Of a DNA stretch of 47,028 bases, positions 13,386 to 20,500 are shown one piece after another; positions within the stretch are counted from its first letter, which is position 1, and every line of letters begins with the position of its first letter. The DNA comes from Intoshia linei (Eukaryota; Animalia; Orthonectida), in assembly GCA_001642005.1 (NCBI GenBank), contig LWCA01000151.1:1-47028 (forward strand), written 5' to 3'. The notes beneath the pieces were generated by a model. The model saw only the letters and a program-made list of their open reading frames with translations. It did no database searches and was not told where the DNA came from. A program made the position numbers and the translations under genes.

Positions 13386-13842
13386 TACCCGTGACTGTGT
13401 CAAAATTCTACAATGTTTTAACAACAGTGTAGAATAATATATTTTTGTTATTTTTTTAATCAGTATAATTAGTGTCATTTTATCTATGACATATCTGAAT
13501 ATTAGGAAAAATGGAATAAAATTTAGATAACAAATGTTAAGGAAACGGAAAAGGTAAAGAAGCGGAATTTTTTCCAACCAAAATGAAAAATATTTACATC
13601 ATTCTACAGTAAATTAAATGGGTATTATCTACTCGTGTCTTTTTTACATTTTAAAAAAAGTCAATAATGGAATAGCCTTACTGTGCTCGGCTGTAGTGTA
13701 TATGATTGGATTTATGAAAATAAGGGGCCATTATTTTCATATTTATCATGATTAGCAAAAGGTACATTATAATTCTGTTTAAATTTGTCAAAAACCAAGA
13801 AAAAACGCAAATGTAACATTTACTATATATGCAAACATGATA

Positions 13843-15442
13843 TTAATGGTATGGTCGTGAAAAATCATCCGCTTTATAAAATTCTTCATTACCGACTGCT
13901 TCCGTATATTGATCATTAGGTACATAATAATTGTTTTGATCGTAAGTATGTGCGTTTCCATTGTTTGGTACTTGTTGATGATTAGAAATGAAATAAATTT
14001 GTTTCTCTGGAATATAATCGGTTCCTGTAGAGTGTCTCGGATCCGGAAGCGTTTTATCATTTGATTTTAAAAAAGGGAACCATTTTTTTTTGTCACCATA
14101 TTTATAGAGAAAAAAACCAACCAAGGTTATCATGATTAAAATTGATAATATCATAAATATTATTATAACGACTAATCGATTCGATCTTTCTTTATTTTCT
14201 AAATATAGTATATATAATAGTTTATTGTTTGTTACAATATGTATATATTAAATTATTTACTTTGCAAAATTTCGTACTTTAATTTTTTGTAATAACAAAA
14301 TGATAATTTTACAAAAAATGGACCATCTTTCTGCCACTTTGTTATAGCTGGTGTAACGTTTCCTCTAATGTAAAATGTATTTAAATAAACACTTGTAGCC
14401 CATGTAATTGACTCAACTTGTTTAGACATGTCTTTAACATTTGGACATTCATTATTTCCCTGTTTTATTAGATAGAATGGTTTTTCTATTGGTAAGATCA
14501 TTTTGTACAATTTTCGCAATGTATCCTTACGACAACAAAAAGAATATACTGTATTTTGATTGTATTCTCCACTGGGTAGAAATCCTAAGATAATAAATAA
14601 GTGGATTTGGCATTTACCAAATCAGGGTCAGTCAAAATTTACCAGCTTTCGAATTTCCATTTATAAATATCCAATTTGGATCATCAAATTTTACGTCACT
14701 TTGCGAGAAGCTTTTGGGGCATTTAGAATGTTCAAATATACAATATGCACCTAATGTTAATGGAAATAAATAGAATTGACGTTTTTGTTTAACTAGGTAG
14801 TATCTCCAGTCACTATCACCATTCTAGATATACTTACCGTACCCGAGGCCCTTTGGCAAAAATCGACAACATTTTTGTAAAACTTCATTTCCCCGAAATT
14901 TTAAATTAAAATTTTGAATATTGAAACTATTTTGTGTAGCAATTTAAATTTAATTCCTGAACTGTGGAAGGGTGGCTAGGGAATATCGAATTACTCATCG
15001 TTTGCGATTTTTTTGACCTCGAGTATAGTAGATTTGACTGTGATCACCATGAACACGTAGGAAATTAAATAATTGATAAAATTACCTGATGGCCAAATAT
15101 TTCCTCTACTTTTATAGTTGATGACTAATTTTGATTTTGTACAAAAAGATAATTTAATTGATTTAGTTCCAATTTTATTTTTGAAATTTGAATTTGGAGC
15201 TTGAGAGTTCCCCAAATTCGTCCGGTGTATACGATATCCTTACATTAATATTTATAAAAAAAGGTATATAAGCCTACCAACTTTCCAATTAGTGATACCT
15301 CCAGGGCATCCACTTTTCGGCATTAGTAAGGTATACGTTCCATCTGGCCATTCTACATCTATTAATTAATATACTGTTTTTTAATTTTACCTTTTCCATA
15401 TAAACTTGATGATAAGTGCAAACTCAACAAAATTAAATACAT
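13843..15442 (-). CDS. Apextrin C-terminal (ApeC) domain single-pass membrane protein, ~357 aa
   Basis: Six exons (15442-15391, 15358-15278, 15238-15086, 14750-14643, 14584-14261, 14198-13843; 1074 nt, in frame). Signal-like MYLILLSLHLSSSLYG; ApeC motifs WPDGTYTLLMPKSGCP, FCTK, WPSGAYCIF..KCP, LPSGEYNQNT..FCCR, LP..PFYL, C..V, FCYY; TM LVVIIIFMILSILIMITLVGFFLY. Confidence 0.88.
14823..15042 (+). mobile_element. MITE family B (Ac-type 8-bp TSD) in ApeC gene intron 3
   Basis: Perfect TSD ATCACCAT; TACCGTACCCGAG core shared with copies at 21019, 22027, ~24675, 26221, 29034 and 29701. Confidence 0.85.
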
Positions 15443-16421
15443 CTAGTTATTTTATGTTAGTACGTATGTTTTAGTGTGAAATATTTCATAAGTATGCAAA
15501 TATTTACGTATCGATTATATTAAAACTATATATTTTGAATAGTGTCATGTTTTTCAATGTATTATTAAAGGTTATAATTTATAATCTTACGGTAGTTATA
15601 TTTTTTTAATTAGATTCGTTTTCATTTGGAAAAGTTTGATTAGTTTAATAAATCTGATGTGCACATCATTACGTTTGTATAGTACAATTGTAAATTGTAA
15701 TTATAATTAGTACATTATATATTATATATATTAATATCATATACAGTATATTATACGGTACAACATTTTGACACTTTTTAAAAAGTTTTGGCTAACTTTT
15801 AATATTTTGAAAGAGTGAATTGAAAAAATCATATTATAAAAATTACAAAGTAAATTGACGCATGGAAATATTTACTGAAATAGGGACACATAAGAATTAC
15901 TTAAAAACTATTTAAATTTTTTTTTTTATATTTGCTTTACAATTATTTTAGATGTAAAAACATTTTTGAATTATATTTAAACAATTAAAATATAATGACA
16001 ATGTAAATAATGATTTAGATTTCAAATCTCCAATAAAAAATCAAAAGTTTTCCTAAAAAAAACTTTTTTTAATAGTTTCGGGATAAAATTTTAACAGGTT
16101 TATTAACGAATGAAGGTGCTTAATGTAACCAAATTATGTAACTTTTTAACGAGTAAATTTTATTCTATTTAAGTTTTAATAAATATTCAGCAGAATACAT
16201 TCTTCATATTTCATCCTCAATGAAGTACTTTATGATGGAGTCATTTTTTCTCTTTTAAATAATATCATTTTATTTTAACTAATTATGAGTGAAATGTCTA
16301 TGTAAAATTTAATTTAATATTTTGGTTGTCAAATTAAAAAAATCTATCCTCAGTTGAGCTAGCTTCTGTTTGTACGACGTACAAACCCGTCAAGCAGCTT
16401 GACTTAAACTACTAAATATAT

Positions 16422-17018
16422 CAGGGGTCGGTAACCTTTTACATCTGGTGGGCCCCGTTTTTGGAAATTTAAACATGATACATTTAAATTTTAACTGAAC
16501 ATAAACGGTTTTACACAGTTTGTCAATTTATTAGGCAGATTACTAAAATTGATGTAATAAACTTTAGGAATGATGAAAACTTAACTTTTTTTTGTACGAC
16601 TTTTTAGATAAAGTACGAATTTGGAACAGTGACAAAAGTCGTACTTCTGGTCGCACTAATTTAGACGTACTTTTTCAAGTAACAGACTTATTGGCCAAAG
16701 AAAAGACAACTCTTGAAATATGCAAAGTTCTAAAACGCGACCATCGAACAATTAAAAAATTGGCTTATTACCCATCAAAAAAAAATAATAGGTCAAATAG
16801 TGTCATAAATAGGTCATATAGTATATTCAACAAAATAAAATCCAGGGCAAACTAAAAATTAAGTATAAAAATGATTATAATGAGCCAATTAAATTAGAAA
16901 ATGTTTAAAACGGTGTTTAAATTTTGAAAAATTTAAAAATAAGTAAGTTACATATGTACTCAAAGGGCCACCAAAATTATTAAAATGTATGCTGTGGACC
17001 ACTGATTGCCGACCCCTA
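16422..17018. mobile_element. hAT-like MITE carrying a nested Tc1 remnant
   Basis: TIRs CAGGGGTCGGTAA / TTGCCGACCCCTA; same family as 1421-1728 with ~305 bp extra. Confidence 0.85.
16514..16818 (+). mobile_element. Tc1/mariner deletion derivative with transposase HTH fragment
   Basis: Flanked by TA...TA at a site that is a single TA in the empty MITE copy; starts CACAGTTTGTCAATTTATTAGGCA; encodes TLEICKVLKRDHRTIKK, resembling the Tc1 N-terminal helix-turn-helix. Confidence 0.75.
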
Positions 17019-17561
17019 ATTATATAAACGTTGTAGAATTACTACATACCAGATTTCTCCAACATAGTCCAATTGTTGTTCTGAAAGGTTCAGAATAAAG
17101 CAGAAACCGCTTCACGAACTTTACAAATGCCTTCAATAACAATCACTGAAAAGCAGACTTTTAATCCTTCAAACATGCATTTCGGAGAGTGTCGAATCTT
17201 ACTTCTAGTTATGTATGTATCTCATATATACATTGTATGACTAATACTTATTGATGAAGTATGTATAATATACATATAGCAGAAGTATACTTCATTACAA
17301 CTCTGTACATTGTACAGTAAACTTTACAACCGAAGTTCCGATTCGTAGACTCTAATTTTGATAATATGAAGCGATTCATGCTTATTACCGATTTTTTATT
17401 AAATTAATAAGCCTTTTGGAGGCTGAAATTATTAATTTATATCATATATATTATATTATCATTGGTAATGCCACAATATCATTAATGTTTATATTCTCTT
17501 AGTAAAATTCTTCATTATTACTTCTATAGTGATATCATCAACATTTAAAAAAATATAGATA

Positions 17562-20500
17562 ATGTCTGATAAACAATCAGTTTCAAAAAAATCTACGCGT
17601 AAATATTCCCAACACTCATATACGTCGGGGAAAAGCGATAAATCAGAAAAAATGAAGTCTGTTGAAACGTAATATTTATACTAACTCATTCAAATTGAAT
17701 TACATATATGAAACATATACTATTACTACCTGAATATTGTAAACCTATATATTTATATACATTGTATATAAATATACGAATCACATTACTGTCTCAATTA
17801 GTTAAATTTAATGATTAATGATTAAAATTACACAATGACAGTTACATCAATTTACATTTGTATAAATAATTTAATTTTAATTAATCTAAAATTTAAATTT
17901 AGAGGCTCTAATCAATCCAAAATTGTAAACAACTCTGAAAAAAAAACTGGAAATAGTGGTAAAGTTAAAATAAAGTAATGTACATTAGATAAAAGTCCAT
18001 TACAGTCAAAAAAGTTTTAAAATTTAAAAAAATTTTAATGTCAATCCGTATTATATATATATATATAGAATTACATATTGTAAATTTTTTGGTAATTATA
18101 GATTACTAGGTTGATTGTACATTTTTATTTATTAATTAAATTTAAAGGGGATGAAAAAGTTGATAAATCTATTTCAAAAAAGAGAAAAATGAGCGTAACA
18201 AGTTTGGCCAGTGATAAGGAGAAAATAGAAATTCCATACACCAAAAACACTTCAGAAAGTGATCATCAAGGTAGATACAAATGCATAAAATTTAATTAAA
18301 TTGACATTGTAAATTTGAATTATAGCATAGAGGAGGGTGTAAGCTATTTAAGATATAAAGACTAATTTAAATCAATTAAAATTGAAAATATACATAAAGT
18401 GTAAATAGATCATACACGTAGCAAGTCCCTCGGTCCACCTAGTTACTGTTTTGTACAAAACACAAAGCCGAACCTACTATTCTCGAAGTCAATAAAAAAA
18501 TACACATACTAAAAAAATAGCAAACGGTGGGAATCCACATAACTCCACCTATCCAAGACCGTGCACGGGTATGGACTTCAGTTTAAATTTAATAATGAGC
18601 ACTTATGATATGAATTTTACATGATATGTACTTTTTAATATTTGAATTAACAAAAATGAGAACCCATTTATACAAATTTACAAAAATTCGAGAAAGGATT
18701 TCGGTTATGGTAGGTTTGACTATATCAAAAAATACTAGATCGTTTTTTATACATTAATAATTTCACAATAGTACCCCAATCTGTCCTAAAATCAACTGAA
18801 AATCCAAATGAATCTAAAAAAATTGAAAAGTTGCAAAGTGAAAGTAAATTTGATAATTAATATTAATTAACAAATAATGATGATAAAAACTATCAGTAAA
18901 TGAAACTTAAATCTCAATTATACAAACTTACAAACCTAGAGACTGAAACTGAAACTGAAACTGAAACTGAAACAGAAACAGAATCTGAAACTGCATCGAT
19001 ATATGGAACCGAAACCGAAATTGACTCAGAAACGGGAACAGGGTCAACTAGTGATAGTTCAAAATCTTCAAAATTATCAAACTCCGAATCAACAAAAACC
19101 AAAAAATCTTATGATGTTAACCAAGAAACTGAAACGGACCAAAATAATCATGATCTGTCCAGCATAGAATCTGTAGCTAAACCAATGGGGGTATTAATTC
19201 ATCATATCATAATTGCATTATACAGTGAACGTTCTTATTATCAGGGATTGGTTAATTGATTCATTAATAAAAATTATTGAAAACAAAACCAATTAAGGGA
19301 TTTTGAAAAATTATTTTTTAATTAATTAAAAATAGTCAATAATATTGTTATAATTTGCTACAAATTATGTTTAATTGTTTAAAAAATGGTCATGCGTTAA
19401 TAATTAATAGGCAATCGTGGTTAACTAATGTCGGGCGAACATTTAATTGAGCTATATATTTTTAGAGCGATAAATCCTAGACTCTAGGATAGCGTTTTTC
19501 ATATGTACTATCTAGAATACTAAGGCCTGGCACAATAGTGCGTATCAGAAAATTTTATGTGTTCCCACTGGGCACTGCCCAGCGTTAAATTGAAAACGAG
19601 CTATTACCATTTCACAAAATGTCAGTTACATCAGATTTGTTTTGTTAAATATGCTGCTTTTCCTTGCAAAATCTTATGATATAGTTAAGATTTTCAGTAA
19701 GCACCTAAAAATATTAAAATTTTATTATTTTTTTTATTTTTACTGTGCGCAAAATTTTTAAATTGCTTCCAAGTGCGTTTCAATAGAAAAACGGTTTAGA
19801 AACACTGCTCTAGGAATTATAGTAATCATTATATTGATTTTTGGACTAAAATTTTGTGGGTTTTTCCAAGTATCTTTTTTACCCAATATTAAAAATAATT
19901 AATGGACTAAATTTATAGTGTTTAATAAAATGAACGTTTAATAATTATCACAAATAATATAATTTTAGAAAATTCAAATTGAAAGAAAAATCACTACAGC
20001 TGGATTAGAGTAATTTACTTTTGCAATACATTTATATCAGCCTTTCACAAATAATAATCAATGAAATATGACATGACCTGTAAAAAATATTACCAAAAAT
20101 TTTTTTATTACTTTGTATTACCGACTTGTGTAAAAACCCTACATGAACAAATATTTTAACATTAATCGGCGAAAATTATTTTTATAAAATAGGATTTACA
20201 AGTTTCAAACTTTGAACCCAGTACATCAGATCTTCCTGCATTGTATATGCAATGCATATATGTATACATTGTATATTATACAACGTACATGTCCCGTAGG
20301 ATGTATAATTTAAAATATAAATTAAACTTAGAAACAAACATTGGAGAAAAATAAAAAACTTGGTTCGAAAAGTAATTTCATTGAAATAAATAATTAAGTT
20401 TATCATTAGAATGAACTACAAGGTACAATTCCGATAGGTCATTGTGCATCAATATTGATAAAATATTATAATAATGGTAGTTACATTCATTGAAATGATT

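What the first reader, a model, noticed from the sequence alone, without database searches (positions are those of the whole stretch)
13843..15442. Receptor-like ApeC protein: signal peptide + ApeC + TM helix + tyrosine-rich cytoplasmic tail
Seen: six exons splice in frame to ~357 aa, all five introns phase 1, joining a complete ApeC-like domain to a strongly hydrophobic segment, a basic stop-transfer patch (KYGDKKK) and an ~80-aa low-complexity tail with about eight Tyr (DYIP, IYF, TYDQ, NYYVP, QYTEAV, EEFYKA, PYH). Known: ApeC is an invertebrate domain; amphioxus ALP1/2 are ApeC proteins reported to bind peptidoglycan/muramyl dipeptide, and apextrins are typically secreted, often MACPF-fused. 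Inference: a membrane-anchored ApeC with a potential phosphotyrosine tail could be an uncharacterised cell-surface pattern-recognition or adhesion receptor, notable in a compact genome. I cannot verify that this architecture is undescribed.
Basis: partly seen in the sequence, partly recalled or inferred. Interest (0 to 1): 0.78.

Follow-up and report, generated by a model that had tools for sequence, protein, structure and literature searches.

The report
Membrane-anchored ApeC protein in Intoshia
A six-exon gene of the parasite Intoshia linei, found spliced in public sequencing runs, encodes a complete ApeC domain, one strongly hydrophobic segment and an 87-residue tyrosine-rich tail, so it is predicted to be a cell-surface protein that likely binds a sugar-type ligand; other ApeC proteins share this layout, so it is an ordinary new member of a known kind.

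Summary
On the minus strand, 15442-13843, six exons splice in frame to 357 aa. All five introns are GT..AG and phase 1. Contigs of three public runs join every exon at those borders, including the key 14261/14198 junction that links ApeC to the membrane exon. Pfam ApeC covers the whole profile (1-208 of 208, 137 bits, E 8.9e-40). All eight family cysteines are kept. Residues 248-270 are strongly hydrophobic, and the 87-aa tail has 10 Tyr.

The novelty claim does not hold:
- The protein is already deposited as Intoshia linei A3Q56_01853, 355 aa, with the same ApeC-to-anchor join.
- A paralog, A3Q56_01544, has the same layout.
- 17 of the 149 other best ApeC representatives also carry a hydrophobic anchor after ApeC. 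All those with names besides the Intoshia paralog are cnidarian.

The tail has no relatives and no ITAM, ITIM, NPxY or YxxPhi motif. Its Tyr content is not beyond what AT-rich DNA would give (P 0.11).

Verdict: a real, spliced and uncharacterised membrane-anchored ApeC protein. It is a new member of a known kind, of low to moderate interest.

The parts
15391..15442 (-). Exon 1: start codon 15442-15440 and a 17-residue hydrophobic leader (MYLILLSLHLSSSLYGK), the predicted signal peptide.
   Evidence: The spliced joint 15358>15391 is seen in X1 and X3. The ApeC profile starts 4 residues after the leader, as in homologs such as P0002 that have a leader followed directly by WPSG. No signal-peptide predictor was available, so cleavage is inferred.
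15278..15358 (-). Exon 2: start of the ApeC domain (WPDGTYTLLMPKSGCP...).
   Evidence: Pfam ApeC profile 1-27, E 5.4e-4, on this exon's frame alone.
15086..15238 (-). Exon 3: ApeC, including degenerate DXED motif 1 (RTNL).
   Evidence: It gave no Pfam hit on its own, but lies inside the full-length match 19-228.
14643..14750 (-). Exon 4: ApeC, including WPSGAYC and motif 2 (DDPN).
   Evidence: Pfam ApeC profile 74-116, E 5e-5.
14261..14584 (-). Exon 5: the last part of ApeC (motif 3 is ATSV; the last Cys is residue 228) and the stalk.
   Evidence: Pfam ApeC profile 115-208, E 1.7e-15, 57.9 bits. The domain ends near 14289.
14199..14260 (-). Intron 5 (62 nt, GTAAAT..TTTAG, phase 1). Its removal joins ApeC to the anchor exon. 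If it were retained, the frame would stop at TAA 14255-14253.
   Evidence: Skipped in contigs of 3 of 3 runs. No contig retains it. Contigs drop rare variants.
14107..14175 (-). Hydrophobic segment, residues 248-270: the predicted single transmembrane helix.
   Evidence: Kyte-Doolittle 19-residue peak of 3.39. The AlphaFold2 model has a helix at 233-271 in 355-aa numbering.
13846..14106 (-). Tail, residues 271-357: basic patch YKYGDKKK, then a predicted disordered stretch with 10 Tyr, two NxxY and one YxxP.
   Evidence: pLDDT is under 50 for residues 296-355. It has no relatives.
13843..13845 (-). Stop codon TAA.
   Evidence: X3 contig 6 runs past it to 13817.
17050..17080 (-). Distal alternative 5' exon (at least these 31 nt), spliced to the acceptor just before the ATG at 15442.
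   Evidence: The loose end of X3 contig 8 at 15443 matches 17051-17080 exactly. The donor ctg|gtatgt was read. There is no in-frame ATG in the stretch scanned, and if the exon runs on unspliced, a stop lies 31 codons upstream, so the protein would be unchanged.

Best explanation
This is a six-exon Intoshia linei gene, spliced in public contigs, that encodes a 357-residue protein with a complete ApeC domain, one strongly hydrophobic segment and an 87-residue tail. It is predicted to sit in the cell membrane as a type I surface protein whose ApeC domain likely binds a carbohydrate-type ligand outside the cell.

Shown:
- the exon structure and the ApeC-to-anchor splice;
- the full ApeC profile match with all eight family cysteines;
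- the hydrophobic segment and the basic patch after it;
- a paralog with the same layout.

Inferred:
- The 17-residue leader is cleaved, so the disulfide-rich ApeC domain faces outward on a stalk of about 17 residues.
- ApeC acts as a lectin-like binding module, as reported for amphioxus and mollusc ApeC proteins, although the three acidic DXED motifs are lost here.
- The predicted disordered tail couples the protein to adaptor or endocytic machinery through Tyr-based short motifs (NNYY, NDQY, YYVP). This is the weakest step.

My odds: membrane-anchored surface ApeC protein about 0.85; ectodomain binds a glycan, cell-wall or matrix ligand about 0.5; tail used for phosphotyrosine or PTB-type docking about 0.2.
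For: - Spliced contigs in three runs join all exons at GT..AG borders, including 14198>14261.
- Pfam ApeC: 137.2 bits, profile 1-208 of 208.
- Eight Cys at the invariant or near-invariant family columns.
- Kyte-Doolittle peak 3.39 at residues 248-270, followed by KYGDKKK.
- AlphaFold2: ApeC domain at pLDDT 92.9 and pTM 0.90 when modelled alone. In the full model there is a long helix at 233-271 and the tail is under pLDDT 50.
- The paralog A3Q56_01544 (352 aa) is 38% identical over ApeC and has the same leader, ApeC, anchor and tail order. The two pair in the tree with SH-aLRT 98.
- 17 of 149 other representatives carry an anchor after ApeC, each followed by basic residues.
- Lectin function of ApeC: peptidoglycan binding by amphioxus ACP1/2/3/5 and by oyster and snail ACPs (PMC8361754 and PMC9585378, passages read). 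BgACP1 binds with all three DXED motifs mutated.
- The tail holds two NxxY and one YxxP.
Against: - No signal-peptide or topology predictor could be run. The leader is short and has no basic n-region.
- The library type of the three runs is not on record, so RNA origin is inferred from the intron-less contigs.
- All three DXED motifs are degenerate (RTNL, DDPN, ATSV, against family D-T-E-D, D-D-E-D and D-D/T-E-D). No ligand has been tested for any membrane-anchored ApeC protein that I found.
- The tail has no ITAM, ITIM, NPxY, PPxY or YxxPhi motif and no relatives. It is not alignable to the paralog's tail.
- Its Tyr content is within what random AT-rich coding gives (P 0.11).
- The assignment of NxxY to PTB domains and YxxP to SH2 domains is recalled, not tested.
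Confidence: 0.55

Rival explanations
1. The protein is a passively tethered adhesion or matrix protein. The ApeC domain would hold cells to an apical matrix or to each other, as proposed for sea-urchin apextrin. The tail would be a compositionally drifting spacer with no signalling role.
For: - Apextrin is described as an apical extracellular-matrix protein proposed to act in cell adhesion (PMC8361754, introduction passages).
- The tails of the two Intoshia paralogs share nothing.
- The tail is an orphan and predicted disordered.
- Its Tyr excess is not significant against AT-rich background.
- The acidic DXED motifs are lost.
Against: - An 87-residue tail is kept in frame and is present in the spliced contigs.
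- Other anchored ApeC proteins have tails with recognisable motifs: PPxY in P0003, P0011 and P0071, and NPxY twice in Xenia P0108. Tails in this class are therefore not generally inert.
Confidence: 0.3
2. The protein is mainly a secreted ApeC lectin. The anchor form would be a minor isoform, or the ectodomain would be shed at the basic stalk (KNKERSNR), so the working molecule is soluble like the short-form ACPs.
For: - Retention of intron 5 would end the frame 8 codons after the ApeC exon, at TAA 14255-14253.
- The characterised ACPs are secreted.
- The stalk is rich in basic residues.
Against: - All three runs show the spliced 14198>14261 joint and no contig retains intron 5, whereas low-depth contigs do retain intron 3.
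- Contigs drop rare variants, so a minor form is not excluded.
- Shedding is pure conjecture.
Confidence: 0.1
3. The contigs are not RNA. They would come from a processed, intron-less DNA copy of the gene, so the splice pattern would not show current expression of this locus.
For: The library type of X1-X3 is not on record.
Against: - The same runs hold contigs that retain intron 3.
- They also hold a contig that uses a distal 5' exon spliced over 1.6 kb. That fits pre-mRNA and alternative transcripts, not one retrocopy.
- All five joints sit at GT..AG borders.
Confidence: 0.03

Closest known systems
Intoshia linei A3Q56_01544 (P0003), the paralog
   Same: Same order: leader, single ApeC, hydrophobic anchor, tail. 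Length is 352 aa against 357 aa. It is 38% identical over ApeC. It has the same degenerate DXED pattern (ITNP, DDAA, ATAK). The two pair in the tree with SH-aLRT 98.
   Different: Its 75-aa tail is unrelated. It has 3 Tyr and ends in a PPxY motif (PPDY) that this gene lacks.
Short-form secreted ApeC-containing proteins: amphioxus ACP1/2/3/5, oyster CgACP1, snail BgACP1
   Same: A signal peptide plus one ApeC domain with eight cysteines. BgACP1 also has all three DXED motifs mutated (PMC9585378 and PMC8361754, passages).
   Different: Those proteins are secreted, and ApeC is at their C-terminus. Here ApeC is followed by an anchor and a cytosolic tail. There is no N-terminal non-ApeC region of the kind that binds TRAF6 in ACP2/3. 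Binding is untested here.
Cnidarian anchored ApeC proteins (Acropora P0056/P0073, Nematostella P0110, Thelohanellus P0057/P0097, Xenia P0108, Stylophora P0018, Actinia P0150)
   Same: ApeC followed by a hydrophobic anchor, a basic patch and a tail. Xenia P0108 also has a Tyr-rich tail: 9 Tyr, NPxY twice and YxxP three times.
   Different: They are not close relatives. The tree backbone is unresolved, and the anchor label needs 9 changes on the tree, at least 4 of them forced by well-supported branches. Their tails are unrelated. Some share their own motif (ELVEDQ..LP.SELK.GLEL.FLKQQ). All are 'uncharacterized' in their records.
Apextrin (MACPF + ApeC; Heliocidaris, molluscs, cnidarians)
   Same: The ApeC domain.
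   Different: No MACPF domain: Pfam finds only ApeC above its cut-off. Apextrins are secreted.

Membership tests
ApeC domain family (Pfam PF16977) | Match to the family profile above the curated cut-off, over the whole domain | tested here: met
   137.2 bits against a cut-off of 26.5, E 8.9e-40, profile 1-208 of 208. The exon-wise hits are colinear.
ApeC domain family (Pfam PF16977) | Eight conserved cysteines of animal ApeC | tested here: met
   Cys at 35, 77, 99, 106, 148, 149, 178 and 228. They fall on the invariant or at least 90% conserved Cys columns of the 74-row alignment. The feature is as stated in PMC8361754 and PMC9585378.
ApeC domain family (Pfam PF16977) | Three 'relatively conserved' DXED motifs | tested here: not met
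   RTNL, DDPN and ATSV, at columns where the family has D 46 of 72 and E 49 of 72; D 65 of 74 and E 47 of 73; D 45 of 71 and E 44 of 71. This feature is not strictly defining: BgACP1 lacks all three and is accepted as an ACP.
ApeC domain family (Pfam PF16977) | Binding of peptidoglycan or another glycan | not testable with these tools
   Needs recombinant ectodomain and binding assays.
Apextrin (MACPF-ApeC) | N-terminal MACPF/perforin domain | tested here: not met
   Pfam lists only ApeC above threshold. The protein starts with a 17-residue leader directly before ApeC.
Type I single-pass membrane protein | Cleavable N-terminal signal peptide | tested here: inconclusive
   A hydrophobic leader (YLILLSL) followed by SSSLYG sits in the position where homologs have clear leaders. 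No predictor was available.
Type I single-pass membrane protein | One hydrophobic helix of about 20 residues after the ectodomain, followed by basic residues | tested here: met
   Residues 248-270, Kyte-Doolittle peak 3.39, followed by YKYGDKKK. The structure model has a helix there.
Phosphotyrosine-signalling immune or phagocytic receptors (ITAM/ITIM/NPxY type) | Canonical ITAM, ITIM, NPxY or YxxPhi motif in the tail | tested here: not met
   A regex scan of the tail found none of these. It found only NxxY twice and YxxP once. The motif definitions are recalled.
Phosphotyrosine-signalling immune or phagocytic receptors (ITAM/ITIM/NPxY type) | Tail tyrosines conserved in relatives or actually phosphorylated | tested here: inconclusive
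   No tail relative was found. The paralog's tail is not alignable. No orthonectid ortholog was available, and phosphorylation is not testable here.

The most novel reading that the evidence does not exclude
The two Intoshia proteins are a lineage-specific bilaterian branch of membrane-anchored ApeC receptors that lost all three acidic DXED motifs. They would therefore recognise a non-canonical ligand, for instance a surface or matrix component of the parasite's host. This copy would signal through phosphotyrosine docking at its NxxY and YxxP sites. That would make it a host-sensing or cell-recognition receptor kept in a very reduced animal.
Probability: 0.08. Interest if true: 0.6.

Novelty: new member of a known kind. 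Interest (0 to 1): 0.25.

Why it matters
No membrane-anchored ApeC protein appears to have been studied functionally. The two experimental papers I read deal with secreted forms. If the prediction holds, this small, transcript-confirmed protein from a highly simplified parasite would be a compact example for asking two questions: what ApeC binds when its acidic motifs are gone, and whether anchored ApeC proteins signal. On present evidence it is an annotated hypothetical protein with an architecture that recurs in at least 17 other representative clusters. Its value is as a corrected gene model and one more data point on ApeC diversity, not as a new kind of receptor.

Tried and rejected
- No whole genome is held for this window, so no genome-wide paralog count was possible. 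The one paralog came from the protein library.
- tblastn of the model against the window found no second ApeC copy. The best off-target hit had E 4.2.
- My first exon coordinates were off by 1-2 nt and gave a broken frame. They were corrected from the joints.
- RNA runs: no RNA holder listed. The three holders have no library type on record.
The 2366 nt upstream of that contig remain unseen beyond their first 30 letters.
- Word-index homolog searches found only the protein itself: exon 5 with longer lengths, full length and tail only.
- The PDB sequence search found nothing at E up to 1.
- Foldseek against the PDB gave no hit at E 0.001 or better, for either the full model or the domain model. 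The top rows were the APCbeta domains of apicomplexan perforin-like proteins: 5ouo at E 7.1e-3 and 3.5e-3, probability 0.63 and 0.60, but TM-scores of only about 0.2, plus 6d7a and 7pln.
- VIA-align did not support that match. The second look on the full model aligned only the long helix, with Z under 4. The wide search with the domain model gave no chain with Z of 2 or more among 48,161. I therefore make no claim about the fold.
- No paper holds both 'APCbeta' and 'apextrin'.
- Li et al. 2021 (Mol Phylogenet Evol 155:107009) is the survey cited for ApeC architectures and 'membrane-bound' forms. It is not held, so I could not see whether this exact layout or the Intoshia genes are listed there.
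- The supplements of PMC9585378 and PMC8361754 were not opened.
- The searches 'ApeC'+'transmembrane' (swamped by avian E. coli 'APEC'), 'ApeC-containing'+'transmembrane' (4 papers; only the one ApeC passage of PMC11087794 was then read, a reference-list entry, and the listing did not suggest a study of an anchored ACP) and 'Intoshia linei'+'apextrin' (1 unrelated paper by its title) found no study of an anchored ApeC protein.
- The tail scan found no TRAF6, TRAF2, PDZ or di-leucine motif.
- I did not run complex prediction, because I claim no specific partner.

Full report
**What is there**

The window is AT-rich, with GC of 0.23-0.32. The gene lies on the minus strand.

From the sequence and the joints in public contigs, the exons are 15442-15391, 15358-15278, 15238-15086, 14750-14643, 14584-14261 and 14198-13843. 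They give 1074 nt, or 357 aa. The five introns are 32, 39, 335, 58 and 62 nt, all GT..AG and all phase 1. My first coordinates were off by 1-2 nt and were corrected.

**Transcript evidence**

The look-up of sequencing runs listed three holders from one study. Their library type is not on record.

Laid on 13700-15600, their contigs skip the five introns at CT..AC on the plus strand:
- The critical ApeC-to-anchor joint 14198>14261 is in 3 of 3 runs (depth 57.2, 10.7 and 4.72; shorter side 255, 255 and 18 letters).
- 14748>15084 and 15237>15277 are in 3 of 3 runs.
- 14583>14642 is in X1 and X2.
- 15358>15391 is in X1 and X3.

No contig retains intron 5. Low-depth contigs retain intron 3 (X1 record 2, 14723-15113, depth 3.2) or lie wholly inside it (X2 record 5, 14877-15039, depth 3.7).

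I read the intron-less contigs as RNA-derived. That is an inference, because the library type is unknown. Contigs also drop rare variants, so a minor read-through isoform is not excluded.

All three runs differ from the window at 14126 and 14341. These changes give T264N and T213R.

**Identity**

The exon 5 translation finds one library protein at 100% identity: NCBI 'hypothetical protein A3Q56_01853 [Intoshia linei]'. UniRef calls it 'Apextrin C-terminal domain-containing protein'. It is 355 aa, on a contig of 47,028 bases, which is the length of the window.

Its sequence already joins ApeC to the anchor and tail. It differs from the contig-supported model only by lacking 'DV' after the leader.

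**Domains**

Pfam ApeC (PF16977) matches residues 19-228 of the deposited protein. The match covers profile 1-208 of 208 at 137.2 bits and E 8.9e-40. Nothing else passes its cut-off.

Single-exon translations hit the profile in order, except exon 3, which gave no hit alone.

The eight cysteines sit on the invariant or near-invariant Cys columns of a 74-row alignment.

The three acidic DXED motifs that the literature calls relatively conserved (PMC8361754 and PMC9585378, passages) are degenerate. This protein has RTNL, DDPN and ATSV. The family majority is D-T-E-D, D-D-E-D/N and D-D/T-E-D.

The paralog shows a similar loss (ITNP, DDAA, ATAK), so the loss probably predates the duplication. That timing is an inference.

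The snail protein BgACP1 is reported to have all three motifs mutated and still to bind peptidoglycan.

**Anchor and tail**

Residues 248-270 have a 19-residue Kyte-Doolittle peak of 3.39 and are followed by YKYGDKKK.

AlphaFold2 with the alignment gives:
- a confident all-beta ApeC domain (pLDDT 92.9 and pTM 0.90 for the domain alone);
- a helix over 233-271;
- a tail under pLDDT 50 from residue 296 on.

The tail has 10 Tyr in 87 residues, or 11.5%. The ectodomain has 5.7% and ten other long ORFs of the window have 3.4%. Random translation at this base composition gives 7.5%, and P(>=10) is 0.11.

A regex scan found NxxY twice (NNYY, NDQY) and YxxP once (YYVP). It found no ITAM, ITIM, NPxY, PPxY, YxxPhi, di-leucine, TRAF or PDZ motif. 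The motif definitions and their binding partners are recalled, not tested. A tail-only homolog search returned only the protein itself.

**Relatives and architecture**

The exhaustive HMMER search found 657 proteins at E up to 0.001 and 294 at E up to 1e-10. Only the best 150 are listed.

The best hits after the query itself are:
- a Lytechinus dual-ApeC protein (E 3.5e-44);
- P0003 (E 2.3e-41), which is Intoshia linei A3Q56_01544.

P0003 is 352 aa with the same leader, ApeC, anchor and tail order. It is 38% identical over ApeC, and its tail is not alignable.

I ran a Kyte-Doolittle scan (threshold 2.0 over 19 residues) on all 150 listed proteins. Among the 149 others, 17 have a hydrophobic segment after the ApeC match, each followed by basic residues. 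I left out P0006, whose segment is followed by 542 further residues.

Of these 17, the named ones other than the Intoshia paralog are all cnidarian: Acropora, Stylophora, Nematostella, Actinia, Xenia and Thelohanellus. Six have no name.

For the tree I took the 80 listed proteins of 430 aa or less and dropped six: five with two or three ApeC stretches, and P0113. That left 74 rows and 206 columns (IQ-TREE quick). The tree shows:
- The two Intoshia proteins pair with SH-aLRT 98.
- They sit in an unresolved cluster with mollusc proteins (Mytilus, Elysia, Bradybaena, Candidula).
- The anchor label needs 9 changes, at least 4 of them forced by well-supported branches, against a shuffled mean of 10.4.

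So anchored forms are scattered rather than forming one clade. Some 'unanchored' sisters may simply be truncated records.

**Literature**

[quoted passage not shown] 2021. That paper is not held.

Both experimental papers deal with secreted short-form ACPs.

My searches found no functional study of an anchored ApeC protein and no mention of the Intoshia genes.

**Fold**

- No PDB relative was found by sequence.
- Foldseek's best rows were APCbeta domains of apicomplexan perforin-like proteins, at E 3.5e-3 to 7.1e-3 but with TM-scores of about 0.2.
- VIA-align did not confirm them.

This is recorded as an unconfirmed lead only.

**Reading**

The architecture is solid. The topology (type I, ApeC outside) is inferred from three things: the leader, the eight cysteines and the anchor followed by a basic patch.

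Ligand binding is extrapolated from secreted ACPs. A signalling role for the tail is weakly based.

However, the layout is already annotated for this very gene and recurs in the family. I rate it a new member of a known kind, with interest 0.25.

Noticed in passing
window 17050-17080 (-) joined to 15442: A 2705-nt contig of run X3 (mean depth 263) carries exons 1-4 preceded by 2366 nt that do not lie next to the gene. The first 30 of those letters match 17051-17080, with a gtatgt donor at 17049 and the acceptor ctag just before the ATG. This is a distal alternative 5' exon, or a contig merged with a neighbouring transcript. It contains an out-of-frame ATG at 17065.
   Followed up: partly
window 16420-17020: Nested inverted repeats (16420-16434 with 17006-17020, 16458-16475 with 16914-16931, and 16468-16490 with 16887-16909) bracket about 600 bp inside the long 5' intron. 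They look like a small transposon remnant. The ORF at 16577-16852 (+) has only a sub-threshold Pfam hit.
   Followed up: partly
window 14751-15085: Intron 3 is 335 nt while the other four are 32-62 nt. It is the only intron seen retained, in low-depth contigs of two runs.
   Followed up: no
window 15352-15358: The deposited NCBI model (355 aa) uses an intron 1 acceptor 6 nt downstream and so lacks 'DV'. The spliced contigs support the 357-aa form.
   Followed up: yes
window 14126 and 14341: All three runs differ from the window at these two places. Both changes are non-synonymous: T264N inside the hydrophobic segment and T213R in ApeC.
   Followed up: partly
proteins P0052, P0073, P0097 (cnidarian anchored ApeC): Their cytosolic tails share a conserved stretch, ELVEDQ..LP.SELK.GLEL.FLKQQ(RHYW), across Acropora, a myxozoan and an unnamed record. 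This may be an undescribed tail motif of one anchored ApeC subfamily.
   Followed up: no
proteins P0003, P0011, P0071: The Intoshia paralog and two unnamed anchored ApeC proteins each carry a PPxY motif near the C-terminal end of the tail (PPDY, PPSY, PPRY). From recall, this motif type is bound by WW domains. The gene under study lacks it.
   Followed up: no
models m83ebc7e46186 and m4560335506eb: The top Foldseek rows for the ApeC model are the APCbeta domains of Toxoplasma and Plasmodium perforin-like proteins. Like ApeC in apextrins, these domains sit C-terminal to a MACPF domain. The scores are weak and VIA-align did not confirm them. No held paper contains both terms.
   Followed up: partly
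window 18900-19256 (+): An ORF of 119 codons begins with a (Thr-Glu) repeat and is Ser/Thr-rich. It has no Pfam hit. It lies on the opposite strand, upstream of the ApeC gene, and may be the abundant transcript merged into X3 contig 8.
   Followed up: no
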